A DNA stretch of 64,000 bases from a virus (taxonomy: Duplodnaviria > Heunggongvirae > Uroviricota > Caudoviricetes). Position 1 is the first letter of the stretch, and each line of letters begins with the position of its first letter. The notes beneath the pieces were generated by a model. It had not been told where the DNA came from and searched no databases. It worked only from the letters and a program-made list of their open reading frames with translations. The translations under genes were made by a program, and so were the position numbers. Positions 60,807 through 61,673 of the stretch are shown here, in pieces. The stretch lies in IMG/VR virus record IMGVR_UViG_2541047959_000009; one strand, 5' to 3'.

Positions 60807-61673
60807 ATGAATCAAAATCCATTCTCATTCTATGACTTTCTTGGATATTTAATACCAGGTGGTTTTTTTATCCTATTAATGTATTTCTGTGGTTTGACAT
60901 TCGATCTAGATATTGTTATTGACTTAAGTGAATTGCTCAGAGGTCAAAGTCAAATCTTTGGCATTTTGAACTACGCTTCAATAGTTATTATATCTTATAT
61001 AGCTGGACATTTTATTTCTATCACGTCAGCATTTTTTATCGAAAAATACATGAATAAAGAATTAGGATATCCTTCCAAATATCTATTTAAAAAATTGATA
61101 GATACCTCAGAAAGCATTTGTAGCCCATCATGCGATGAGAGAAGCGCTGATAAAAAAACAAAAATAAAGAATCGCATAATCAAATGCGTATTATGTCCAA
61201 TAATACTATGGGATTTTATAACACAAAAACTATGTTATTCTCAATCTCTACCATTTCATTTAGCTAATACAACATGGTTAATGATCAAAGAAGGTTATGA
61301 GAAAAAGTTCATAACAAATCGCCAATTATTACAAGATAAAAACGGACTTGATGATGATCTCTTCAGATTGGCATATCATTATGTTTATGAGTTTTCAAAA
61401 CAACATCAAACAAAAATTCAAAACTATGTTGCATTATATGGTTTTTGCAGAAACATATGTTTAATCTTTATAATTTCATTTTGGGTATCAGTTCCAACCT
61501 TTATTTATCGATTATGTACTCATAGTGATTATCTTTATAGTTTACTTTCAATAATGCTTAGCTTTTTCTTCGTCTATGTTTTCTATGTTGGTTTTGTTAA
61601 ATTTTATAGAAGATATACTTTAGAAGTATTAATGGCATTTGCTGTACTTCAAAGTAACGACACTATTCGTTAA
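60807..61673 (+). CDS. AT-rich multi-pass membrane protein (moron)
   Basis: Start MNQNPFSFYDF with GGAGAG RBS; hydrophobic helices at both ends. Confidence 0.5.
   Translation: MNQNPFSFYDFLGYLIPGGFFILLMYFCGLTFDLDIVIDLSELLRGQSQIFGILNYASIVIISYIAGHFISITSAFFIEKYMNKELGYPSKYLFKKLIDTSESICSPSCDERSADKKTKIKNRIIKCVLCPIILWDFITQKLCYSQSLPFHLANTTWLMIKEGYEKKFITNRQLLQDKNGLDDDLFRLAYHYVYEFSKQHQTKIQNYVALYGFCRNICLIFIISFWVSVPTFIYRLCTHSDYLYSLLSIMLSFFFVYVFYVGFVKFYRRYTLEVLMAFAVLQSNDTIR

What the first reader, a model, noticed from the sequence alone, without database searches (positions are those of the whole stretch)
60807..61673. AT-rich multi-pass membrane protein between early genes and xis-int
A 287-aa protein with hydrophobic helices at both termini, AT-rich, with strong RBS, is inserted into the early-left operon. 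Membrane proteins here are often superinfection-exclusion or abortive-infection factors.
Basis: inference. Interest (0 to 1): 0.45.

Follow-up and report, generated by a model that had tools for sequence, protein, structure and literature searches.

The report
Csx27-like membrane protein cassette in prophage
This is a real, AT-rich gene cassette in an E. coli prophage that encodes a four-helix inner-membrane protein from a large uncharacterised family; the family is distantly related to the CRISPR accessory protein Csx27 and recurs in known phage-defence hotspots, so it is a good but untested anti-phage candidate.

Summary
Window 60807-61673 (+) encodes a 288-aa protein (not 287). Its GC content is 28.5%, against 44-46% in the neighbouring genes. 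It has two hydrophobic helices at each end and a GGAG ribosome-binding site 7 nt upstream.

It is a precise 990-bp cassette (60694-61683) between yfdR and xis-int of a lambdoid prophage identical to one in E. coli UTI89. Sibling prophages carry two small ORFs in this slot instead.

The protein has no Pfam family (PHROG 12528, unknown function). It belongs to a family of about 960 clusters at 50% identity, spread across many phyla, and evolves under purifying selection. A confident AlphaFold model has no significant structural neighbour.

78 of 110 family members hit the Csx27 model (type VI-B CRISPR accessory protein), so this is a remote homologue, not Csx27 itself. There is no cas13b.

A 42%-identical homologue, paired with a DUF4760 protein, is "system #3" (1102 occurrences) of the E. 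coli P2 defence hotspot catalogued by Rousset et al. 2022. It does not appear in their table of tested systems. Other members sit next to xis-int, inside type I R-M operons, or beside PIN, AIPR and SIR2-STAND genes. No partner gene is conserved.

Conservation is confined to the predicted cytoplasmic membrane face. A stand-alone anti-phage membrane factor is the best-supported reading, from context only.

The parts
60694..61683 (+). Swappable 990-bp cassette: 113 nt upstream of the CDS (the last 5 nt of yfdR plus a 108-nt AT-rich spacer), the CDS itself, and 10 nt downstream
   Evidence: Homology to sibling prophages L012, L013 and L014 stops at window 60693 and resumes at 61684. Those prophages carry a 120-aa and a 71-aa ORF in the slot instead. 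The GC trough is at about 60600-61800.
60807..61673 (+). CDS of the 288-aa Csx27-like four-helix membrane protein (WP_001075212.1, PHROG 12528)
   Evidence: dN/dS is 0.16-0.23.
60796..60799 (+). Shine-Dalgarno GGAG, 7 nt before the ATG
   Evidence: Read directly from the sequence. TTGGAG is conserved upstream in the closer alleles.
60699..60806 (+). AT-rich upstream spacer that travels with the cassette. It holds a possible weak promoter, with a TATATT -10-like box at about 60771-60776. This is unproven.
   Evidence: The consensus scan found no promoter here. GGTTATATT / GGTTACATT is conserved among the 78-100% alleles.
60807..60839 (+). N-terminal cytoplasmic motif (M)NQNPFSFYDF, residues 1-11; it continues into TM1 as LGYLIPGG. 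This is the family signature.
   Evidence: Mean conservation is 3.3 bits. F6 is invariant, and P5, S7, Y9, D10 and F11 are at least 95% conserved.
60840..60908 (+). TM1 (residues 12-34)
   Evidence: Hydropathy and model helix 8-31.
60960..61034 (+). TM2 (residues 52-76), with a conserved stripe Y64, G67, H68, S74
61035..61433 (+). Predicted cytoplasmic domain (residues 77-209). It contains E79, YPS88-90, a hydrophobic Pro-kinked helix at about residues 116-139 (P131), and H191-x3-E195-x4-H200-x2-K203-x2-N206.
   Evidence: The positive-inside assignment comes from my count on the translated sequence: 21 K+R in this domain and 4 in the C-tail, against 1 in the two outer loops.
61434..61514 (+). 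TM3 (residues 210-236), entered through the near-invariant NYVALYGFxR motif (R215 invariant)
61533..61604 (+). TM4 (residues 243-266), ending in GFVKFYRR (K265 invariant)
61605..61670 (+). Cytoplasmic C-terminal helix extension (residues 267-288; E273 and M276 conserved)
60174..60698 (+). Upstream flank: yfdR-like HD-domain 5'-deoxynucleotidase, the last shared early-left gene
61684..61699 (+). Small hairpin CCCGT-GTGCAG-ACGGG at the right junction of the cassette, conserved in sibling prophages
   Evidence: sequence print-out.
61715..61921 (+). Downstream flank: excisionase
   Evidence: PHROG 2917, E 8e-45. RefSeq annotation.
61882..63054 (+). Downstream flank: tyrosine integrase
   Evidence: PF12167 and PF00589. 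Annotation.

Best explanation
**What it is.** The gene is an accessory ('moron') cassette of a lambdoid prophage. It encodes a stand-alone inner-membrane protein of a Csx27-like four-helix family.

**What I think it does.** I think it acts in conflicts between the lysogen and other phages or mobile DNA.

**Anatomy (shown or predicted).**
- The predicted topology is N-in, TM1-TM2, a cytoplasmic domain of about 130 aa, TM3-TM4, and a C-in tail.
- Every strongly conserved residue lies at the cytoplasmic ends of the four helices or in the segments next to the membrane. These include D10, Y14, Y64, G67, H68, S74, E79, YPS88-90, H191, E195, H200, K203, N206, R215, K265 and E273.
- The periplasmic halves and loops are free to vary.

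**Favoured mechanism (inferred).** The protein, probably as an oligomer, uses this conserved cytoplasm-facing site as a sensor or gate. On infection it compromises the membrane barrier or energisation, or the passage of nucleic acid at the membrane, and so aborts the infection. This would be an Abi-like single-protein sensor and effector.

**Expression.** Placement in the early-left operon means it is at least made after induction or infection. Whether it is also made in the lysogen is not known.
For: **Cassette behaviour**
- Exact junctions lie at 60693/60694 and 61683/61684. Two other ORFs fill the slot in prophages with the same flanks.
- The gene is far more AT-rich than its surroundings here, in all 26 viral loci examined and in 59 of 74 genomic loci.

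**Recurrence in accessory or defence positions**
- It sits directly before xis-int in Enterobacter and Klebsiella prophages that have different xis, int and upstream genes.
- It sits between portal gpQ and replication gpA of P2-like phages. Rousset et al. 2022 (PMC9122126) defined that interval as a defence hotspot.
- Their Table S5B lists a 42%-identical homologue plus DUF4760 as system #3, with 1102 occurrences.
- It lies between hsdS and hsdR of type I R-M operons in L105 and L118, and next to MvaI/BcnI, a C5 methylase, PIN_8, AIPR and SIR2-STAND genes.

**Stand-alone unit**
- No neighbouring family recurs in more than 5 of 74 genomes.
- DUF4760 is absent from the window.

**Relationship to a defence-associated membrane protein**
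- The PADLOC Csx27 model hits the query at E 1.4e-5 and hits 78 of 110 diverse members, best 2.2e-10.
- The NCBIfam Csx27 model hits 19 of 110 members.

**Selection and retention**
- dN/dS is 0.16-0.23.
- A 78% allele remains intact in an integrase-less prophage remnant near lexA, indexed in more than 2000 blocks of the assembly collection.

**Site of action**
- Conservation is 2.6-3.3 bits per column on the cytoplasmic side against 0.4-1.6 bits on the periplasmic side.
- All 29 columns that are at least 90% conserved lie on the predicted cytoplasmic side.
Against: - No member of the family has a published phenotype. The P2 homologue does not appear in Rousset's table of tested systems.
- No PADLOC model other than Csx27/tm_4 gives more than marginal hits (PDC-M48A, 5 of 110 members), so it is not a catalogued defence gene.
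- Neither a promoter nor a terminator of its own was detected, so expression in the lysogen is unproven.
- The very strong conservation of polar residues across phyla looks more like an enzyme or ligand site than a simple pore.
- Csx27 itself lowered Cas13b interference rather than enhancing defence (bioRxiv 10.1101/092577).
- Some members lie in glycosyltransferase clusters.
- The topology rests only on hydropathy and the positive-inside rule.
Confidence: 0.35

Rival explanations
1. Superinfection exclusion at the DNA-entry step. The protein sits in the inner membrane and stops incoming phage genomes from crossing it or being released from it, as P22 SieA, T4 Imm and HK97 gp15 do. The cell is not killed.
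For: - It is a single membrane protein encoded next to xis-int in temperate phages.
- It is co-transcribed with early genes, so it would act quickly after infection or induction.
- The Csx27 family was proposed to form channels for ssDNA at the membrane (Makarova et al. 2019, as summarised in PMC7642515 and PMC11662929).
- The variable periplasmic loops could carry specificity.
Against: - The conserved part faces the cytoplasm. The family spans Gram-negative bacteria, Firmicutes, Chloroflexi and an Acholeplasmataceae MAG, whereas entry routes are specific to each phage and host.
- Many members lie in chromosomal R-M operons, not in phages.
- There is no similarity to SieA, SieB or Imm families in Pfam or PHROGs.
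Confidence: 0.2
2. Lysogenic conversion of the envelope or host physiology rather than defence. Examples would be a membrane enzyme or adaptor acting on lipid-linked or polysaccharide intermediates, or a fitness or virulence factor of ExPEC strains.
For: - The invariant set of His, Glu, Asp, Lys, Arg, Asn and Tyr residues at the membrane-cytoplasm interface looks like an active site.
- Some Bacteroidales and Acholeplasmataceae members are directly downstream of GT2 or GT4 glycosyltransferases (L137, L147).
- Serotype-conversion genes often lie near int in temperate phages (my own knowledge).
- The exact allele is found in B2/ExPEC strains such as UTI89, S88, IHE3034 and APEC O1.
Against: - No Pfam or NCBIfam hit to GtrA/B, acyltransferases, Wzy/Wzx, PAP2 or any other enzyme family.
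- No partner transferase lies in the cassette.
- With the two transferase seeds I used, glycosyltransferase neighbours turned up in only 2 of 74 loci; the seeds do not cover all transferase families.
- R-M, defence and mobile-element contexts are commoner.
Confidence: 0.13
3. A modulator or anti-defence factor. Like Csx27, which damps Cas13b, the protein would tune or inhibit another immune or nucleic-acid uptake system of the host, to the benefit of the prophage.
For: - Csx27 repressed BzCas13b and PbCas13b interference in E. coli, by up to 1e5-fold (bioRxiv 10.1101/092577).
- The family is remotely homologous to Csx27.
- The gene lies in an early operon, where phage counter-defence genes are common (my own knowledge).
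Against: - The window contains no cas13b: no ORF exceeds 695 aa.
- No conserved partner system is found in 74 genomes.
- Being embedded inside R-M operons and the P2 defence hotspot fits defence cargo better than anti-defence cargo.
Confidence: 0.12
4. A membrane function for the phage's own lytic cycle, for example membrane remodelling, control of lysis timing or help with genome release. It would be made only from the early-left transcript.
For: - Same strand and short gaps to yfdR and xis, with no promoter or terminator detected.
- Lambda-type early-left regions carry many small accessory genes (my own knowledge).
Against: - The gene is dispensable: sibling prophages with the same backbone lack it.
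- It is present in non-phage chromosomal loci across many phyla.
- It is kept intact in an integrase-less prophage remnant.
Confidence: 0.08
5. A decaying or non-functional horizontally acquired ORF.
For: It has foreign base composition and is annotated only as a hypothetical protein.
Against: - dN/dS is 0.16-0.23 and the alleles examined carry no stop codons.
- 176 E. coli genomes carry it at 99% identity or more.
- The family has 961 clusters at 50% identity, with nine invariant residues across 110 diverse members.
- The structural model is confident.
Confidence: 0.02

Closest known systems
Csx27, the accessory membrane protein of type VI-B1 CRISPR-Cas13b loci, and the wider 'Csx27 family' of four-helix proteins described computationally by Makarova et al. 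2019 (FEMS Microbiol Lett fnz088)
   Same: - Four predicted transmembrane helices arranged two plus two around a central segment.
- HMM similarity runs from the N-terminal motif to TM4 (query residues 6-268 against model positions 4-188 of 206).
- 78 of 110 family members hit the PADLOC Csx27 model and 19 of 110 hit the NCBIfam model.
- It is associated with defence or DNA-modification genes in some loci.
- The mechanism is unknown in both cases.
   Different: - It scores far below the curated Csx27 cut-off (14.9 against 65 bits).
- It is about 80 residues longer, with an enlarged cytoplasmic domain.
- There is no cas13b, no CRISPR array, and no competence, ubiquitin-like or WYL neighbours.
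- It is a solitary gene in a prophage early-left operon of E. coli.
- I could not read the 2019 paper. I therefore cannot say whether this exact subfamily was included in it.
P2-hotspot 'system #3' (DUF4760 plus a four-helix protein) in Table S5B of Rousset et al. 2022 (PMC9122126)
   Same: - The four-helix protein is a full-length homologue: 42% identity, E 2e-64, with the same motifs.
- It is carried by temperate coliphages as variable cargo.
   Different: - There it is paired with a one-helix DUF4760 protein and lies between gpA and gpQ of P2-like phages.
- Here it has no DUF4760 partner and lies between yfdR and xis of a lambdoid prophage.
- The P2 system does not appear in that paper's table of tested systems.
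Prophage membrane exclusion and abortive-infection proteins (P22 SieA, T4 Imm, HK97 gp15, lambda RexB)
   Same: Small multi-pass inner-membrane proteins encoded as accessory genes of temperate phages. RexB also has four helices (my own knowledge; Rousset Table S1/S2 notes).
   Different: - No sequence or profile similarity to any of them.
- Unlike RexB it has no RexA-like partner.
- It is far more widely distributed and more conserved than typical exclusion proteins.
MotA / PomA / ExbB stator-type proteins
   Same: The same gross topology: TM1-TM2, a large cytoplasmic loop, TM3-TM4 and a cytoplasmic tail. These are the top, but non-significant, Foldseek PDB hits.
   Different: E-values are 0.46-2 and TM-scores 0.14-0.26, so there is no real structural match. 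There is no MotB- or ExbD-like partner gene and no Pfam hit.

Membership tests
Csx27 sensu stricto (type VI-B1 CRISPR accessory protein) | Score above the curated cut-off of the NCBIfam equivalog model NF040557 (65 bits) | tested here: not met
   14.9 bits, E 0.02, N-terminal 39 residues only. No member was shown to reach the cut-off; the best E-value among 110 members is 2e-6.
Csx27 sensu stricto (type VI-B1 CRISPR accessory protein) | Encoded next to cas13b and a CRISPR array | tested here: not met
   The neighbours are yfdR, xis and int. The largest ORF in the window is 695 aa, so no Cas13b-sized gene is present.
Csx27 sensu stricto (type VI-B1 CRISPR accessory protein) | Small protein with multiple predicted hydrophobic helices; the model length is about 206-223 aa (four helices per Makarova 2019 as summarised in PMC7642515) | tested here: inconclusive
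   Four helices are present, but the protein is 288 aa with an enlarged central domain.
Wider Csx27-like four-helix superfamily | Reproducible profile similarity to Csx27 across the family, covering both helix pairs | tested here: met
   PADLOC Csx27 gives E 1.4e-5 for the query (residues 6-268 against model positions 4-188 of 206) and hits 78 of 110 members, best 2.2e-10. The related model tm_4 hits 25 of 110. NCBIfam hits 19 of 110. I could not obtain real Csx27 sequences for a direct profile-profile test.
Wider Csx27-like four-helix superfamily | Operon association with natural-transformation, ubiquitin-like or WYL genes, or with DNA-modification genes (as summarised for Makarova 2019) | tested here: inconclusive
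   The cluster analysis found no recurrent neighbour of those kinds; not every neighbour was annotated. DNA methylase or R-M genes lie within 7 kb in 8 of 74 loci, and also in viral loci L074, L085 and L086. None lies next to the gene in this window.
P2-hotspot system #3 (DUF4760 + 4TM), Rousset 2022 | Homologous four-helix protein | tested here: met
   42% identity over 287 aligned positions, E 2e-64.
P2-hotspot system #3 (DUF4760 + 4TM), Rousset 2022 | Adjacent DUF4760 partner gene | tested here: not met
   A six-frame phmmer search with the DUF4760 protein finds it only in the P2-type loci L067-L073, L089 and L090. It finds nothing in the window.
P2-hotspot system #3 (DUF4760 + 4TM), Rousset 2022 | Location between gpA and gpQ of a P2-like phage | tested here: not met
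   Here the gene lies in a lambdoid prophage, in the slot between yfdR and xis.
PHROG 12528 | Full-length match to the PHROG profile | tested here: met
   E 8e-174, residues 1-288 against profile positions 1-288; function unknown.
Known exclusion or Abi membrane proteins (SieA, SieB, Imm, RexB) | Sequence or profile similarity to the family | tested here: not met
   No such hit in Pfam, PHROGs, PADLOC or NCBIfam.
Known exclusion or Abi membrane proteins (SieA, SieB, Imm, RexB) | Reduces plating or productive infection of a superinfecting phage | not testable with these tools
   This needs plaque, adsorption, DNA-entry and membrane-potential assays.
MotA/ExbB/TolQ stator family | Significant structural or sequence match, and a MotB/ExbD-type partner | tested here: not met
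   Foldseek E >= 0.46 and TM-score <= 0.26. No Pfam hit. No partner gene in the cassette.

The most novel reading that the evidence does not exclude
The protein is the E. coli-native representative of a widespread, structurally new class of stand-alone membrane immunity proteins. Its invariant cytoplasm-facing cluster of His, Glu, Asp, Lys and Arg residues would be a catalytic or gating site acting on nucleic acid, or on a lipid or nucleotide signal, as it crosses or reaches the inner membrane. If so, it would also reveal what Csx27 does in type VI-B CRISPR systems: membrane-level control of foreign nucleic acid, as Makarova et al. proposed.
Probability: 0.15. Interest if true: 0.8.

Novelty: new variant of a known kind. 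Interest (0 to 1): 0.5.

Why it matters
- **An uncharacterised, widespread family.** It holds about 960 clusters at 50% identity across many phyla. It has no Pfam entry, no solved or similar structure, and no known function.
- **Common in defence hotspots.** A relative is the third commonest cargo of the E. coli P2 defence hotspot, and others sit inside R-M operons. A positive phage-resistance test would add a very common single-gene membrane defence.
- **A route to Csx27.** The mechanism of Csx27 has been open since 2017. This gene offers a genetically tractable E. coli model for the Csx27-like superfamily.
- **Precise targets for mutagenesis.** The sharply one-sided conservation gives a defined list of residues to mutate.

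Tried and rejected
- **Family libraries.** Pfam and NCBIfam gave no family for the query or the family, apart from sub-threshold Csx27 hits and scattered single hits typical of membrane proteins.
- **PDB by sequence.** Neither the single sequence nor the 110-member profile found anything.
- **Foldseek against PDB and BFVD.** No hit at E <= 1e-3. The weak MotA/PomA/ExbB hits were rejected.
- **AFDB Foldseek.** The library was not available.
- **Promoter and terminator scan.** No sigma-70 promoter lies in the 108-nt spacer and no terminator lies in the gaps on either side of the gene. Aligning the upstream regions shows only a conserved TATATT-like box. Expression in the lysogen is therefore undecided.
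- **Conserved partner gene.** None was found in 74 genomes. DUF4760 occurs only in P2-type loci.
- **Phage DNA search.** A megablast DNA search of isolated phages gave no match. A protein search found only nine records, all annotated as hypothetical or unannotated.
- **Literature.** WP_001075212 does not appear in the text library. DUF4760 appears in one unrelated paper. The Makarova 2019 paper and the published version and supplements of Smargon 2017 are not held. I therefore could not obtain true Csx27 sequences for a direct profile-profile comparison.
- **Bacteroidota members.** They are not closer to Csx27 than the E. coli protein is.
- **Rfam.** A scan of 54000-64000 found nothing.
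Full report
**1. The observation**

An ORF runs from 60807 to 61673 on the + strand. A longer version starting at TTG 60783 is possible on paper. 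I reject it because all homologues begin at MNQNPFS and RefSeq annotates exactly 60807-61673 as WP_001075212.1, a hypothetical protein.

The gene has 28.5% GC and 21.5% GC3. Its neighbours yfdQ, yfdR, xis and int have 44-47% GC, and the window as a whole has 49.2%. GGAG lies 7 nt before the ATG. Hydropathy analysis gives four helices at about residues 12-34, 52-76, 210-236 and 243-266.

At this base composition an open frame of 288 codons has a chance probability of about 2e-11 (my arithmetic). The gene also evolves under purifying selection, with dN/dS of 0.16-0.23 against alleles of 78-85% identity.

**2. Where it sits**

The window matches E. coli UTI89 and about 175 other genomes, mostly B2/ExPEC strains, at 99-100% identity. 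The region is a lambdoid prophage. Its gene order is a cI-like ymfK facing ymfT and ymfL, then yfdP, yfdQ (DUF2303), yfdR (HD-domain 5'-deoxynucleotidase), the gene, xis and int. Three minus-strand cargo genes follow, and then the host gene glaH.

The gene is on the same strand as the early-left genes and xis-int. It lies 108 nt after yfdR and 41 nt before xis. No promoter is predicted in the upstream spacer, and no terminator is predicted in either gap.

**3. It is a cassette**

In thousands of E. coli genomes, homology to yfdQ-yfdR ends at window 60693. In prophages that share both flanks, homology resumes at 61684. The 610 bp in between carry a 120-aa and a 71-aa ORF instead of this gene. 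The unit that was exchanged is therefore 60694-61683: the gene, the 113 nt before it (the last 5 nt of yfdR and a 108-nt AT-rich spacer) and 10 nt after it.

**4. The family**

Pfam has nothing for the protein. PHROGs places it in phrog_12528, of unknown function.

A profile search of 1.84 billion representative proteins found 961 clusters at 50% identity with E <= 1e-3, and 209 with E <= 1e-30. Nearly all are full-length at 270-300 aa. Source names and a genome scan place members in these groups:
- Gamma-, Beta- and Deltaproteobacteria
- Bacteroidota
- Firmicutes
- an Acholeplasmataceae MAG
- Chloroflexi
- Acidobacteria
- Gemmatimonadota
- Spirochaetes
- Verrucomicrobia

In an alignment of 110 diverse members (26-52% identical to the query, apart from one 78% allele), nine residues are invariant: F6, Y14, Y64, G67, S74, E79, H191, R215 and K265. 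About 30 more are at least 90% conserved. They form these motifs:
- NPFSxYDFLGYxxPG
- YxxGHxxSxxSxxxxE
- GYPSxYL
- FRxxYHYxxE
- HxxKxQNYVALYGFxR
- GFxKFYRRFxLE

**5. Structure and topology**

An AlphaFold2 model built on 71 sequences is confident, with mean pLDDT 81.6 and pTM 0.82. It is all-helical and ends in a long TM3-TM4 hairpin, helices 198-238 and 243-287.

The fold searches gave the following:
- Foldseek against PDB and against BFVD gives no hit at E <= 1e-3.
- The best Foldseek hits are MotA, PomA and ExbB, which share the gross topology, but at TM-scores of 0.14-0.26. I do not accept them as relatives.
- PDB sequence searches are empty.

The central domain holds 21 Lys+Arg and the C-tail holds 4, against 1 in the two short outer loops (my count on the translated sequence). 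This gives an N-in, C-in topology with the 130-aa domain in the cytoplasm. That topology is an inference.

On this topology, conservation is strikingly one-sided. The N-tail, the cytoplasmic halves of all four helices and the segments next to the membrane carry 2.6-3.3 bits per column. The periplasmic halves and loops carry 0.4-1.6 bits. All 29 columns that are at least 90% conserved are on the cytoplasmic side. The functional site therefore faces the cytoplasm at the membrane surface.

**6. Relation to Csx27**

The only defence-library hit is Csx27, the membrane accessory protein of type VI-B1 CRISPR-Cas13b loci.
- The query scores E 1.4e-5, with residues 6-268 aligned to model positions 4-188 of 206.
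- 78 of 110 diverse members hit the model, the best at 2.2e-10. The related model tm_4 hits 25 members.
- The independent NCBIfam Csx27 model hits 19 members, the best at 2e-6.
- The query scores 14.9 bits against a curated cut-off of 65 bits.

I conclude that this is a remote homologue and not Csx27. There is no cas13b: the largest ORF in the window is 695 aa.

What is known about Csx27 is limited. It lowered Cas13b interference when co-expressed in E. coli (bioRxiv 10.1101/092577). Makarova et al. 2019 placed it in an expansive four-helix family linked to competence genes, and predicted that it forms ssDNA channels (as summarised in PMC7642515 and PMC11662929). I could not read that paper. 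My memory of its abstract is that one subfamily was linked to DNA modification.

**7. Genomic contexts of relatives**

Temperate phages:
- Enterobacter and Klebsiella prophages carry a 50-52% homologue in the same position, immediately before a different xis and int and after different early genes.
- P2-like phages carry a 42-43% homologue between portal gpQ and replication gpA. Rousset et al. 2022 defined that interval as a defence hotspot (PMC9122126).
- Their Table S5B lists "system #3, DUF4760" with 1102 occurrences. Its protein 2 (four helices) is 42% identical to the window protein over its full length, E 2e-64. Its sequence is absent from their table of tested systems.
- The DUF4760 partner occurs only in the P2-type loci and not in the window.
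- Other viral loci place the gene beside AIPR, PIN_8 or C5-methylase genes, or in a Mu-like prophage.

Species genomes (74 loci):
- No neighbouring family recurs in more than five loci.
- The gene lies between hsdS and hsdR of type I R-M operons in L105 and L118.
- It lies next to MvaI/BcnI, a C5 methylase, PIN_8 and SIR2-STAND genes, and next to integrases and a transposase.
- A minority of loci, in Bacteroidales and an Acholeplasmataceae MAG, place it after glycosyltransferases.

Two further points apply across contexts. The gene is more AT-rich than its surroundings in all 26 viral loci examined and in 59 of 74 genomic loci. A 78% allele also stays intact in an integrase-less prophage remnant near lexA, indexed in more than 2000 blocks of the assembly collection.

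**8. Interpretation**

Shown:
- It is a real, selected, solitary membrane-protein cassette.
- It is a member of a large unannotated family.
- It is a remote Csx27 homologue.
- It recurs in variable cargo positions of temperate phages and in R-M or defence neighbourhoods.
- Its conserved site lies on the predicted cytoplasmic face.

Inferred:
- It serves in conflicts with other phages or mobile DNA.
- I favour an Abi-like single-protein sensor and effector that acts on membrane integrity or on nucleic-acid passage (0.35).
- An entry-blocking exclusion protein comes next (0.2). My reason for the order is that conservation across phyla and a cytoplasm-facing site fit a universal target better than a phage-specific entry route.

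Rivals:
- envelope or physiological conversion (0.13)
- a Csx27-like modulator or anti-defence role (0.12)
- a function in the phage's own lytic cycle (0.08)
- a decaying gene (0.02, refuted by the conservation data)

None of these can be separated without experiments.

**9. Novelty and verdict**

The gene is annotated only as hypothetical. A relative has been catalogued but does not appear among the tested systems, and the parent superfamily has been described only computationally. I rate it a new variant of a known kind: a stand-alone Csx27-like protein with an enlarged cytoplasmic domain, sitting in a lambdoid slot before xis-int. Interest is moderate (0.5). It is a well-defined, very common and easily testable defence candidate, and it could also clarify what Csx27 does.

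Noticed in passing
window 63046-64000 (- strand), continuing beyond the window end (UTI89 locus L001 14347-16217): Three minus-strand cargo genes lie between int and the host gene glaH. They are a 205-aa protein with an N-terminal hydrophobic helix (PHROG 30059, no Pfam), a 108-aa STAS-like DUF4325 protein, and a 303-aa protein with no PDB sequence relative. Sibling prophages carry DarT/DarG or AAA ATPases at this same position after int, so it looks like a second variable, probably defensive, cargo hotspot of the prophage.
   Followed up: partly
window 57813-58325 (- strand): A 170-aa ORF with a signal-peptide-like N-terminus and a weak LprI lysozyme-inhibitor hit (PF07007, E 0.006; PHROG 7681). 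It lies on the opposite strand between the cI-like ymfK and yfdP, which is a moron-like placement.
   Followed up: no
window 61684-61699: A small hairpin, CCCGT-GTGCAG-ACGGG, sits exactly where homology with sibling prophages resumes, just upstream of the xis ribosome-binding site. It is conserved, with compensating changes, in L012 (GCCCGTGTGCAGCGGGC). No T-run follows, so it does not look like an intrinsic terminator.
   Followed up: no
window 56936-57610 (ymfK, e14-type cI): A recent paper (PMC12803456) reports an anti-phage sRNA, svsR, at the 3' end of cI in the related lambdoid prophage NC-SV of E. coli NC101. An Rfam scan of 54000-64000 at gathering threshold found no RNA family. I did not check whether this prophage carries svsR.
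   Followed up: partly
loci L002-L006 (E. coli, about 8908-10438): The 78% allele sits in a prophage remnant next to zur, dinF and lexA. The remnant has an xis-like PyocinActivator gene but no integrase, followed by a SocA_Panacea (antitoxin-domain) gene and small ORFs. The membrane gene is intact there and is indexed in more than 2000 blocks of the assembly collection.
   Followed up: partly
Rousset 2022 Table S5B (supplement file 6, part 25): Another P2-hotspot 'protein 2', 162 aa with four helices, shares only the N-terminal hairpin motif with the family profile (hhalign E 0.0013, probability 19%). This hints at a wider set of Csx27-like membrane modules in hotspots, but it is not significant.
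   Followed up: partly
window 58409-59156: A local GC peak of about 55% with overlapping ORFs. RefSeq annotates a frameshifted pseudogene here (UTI89_RS28885), just upstream of yfdP.
   Followed up: no
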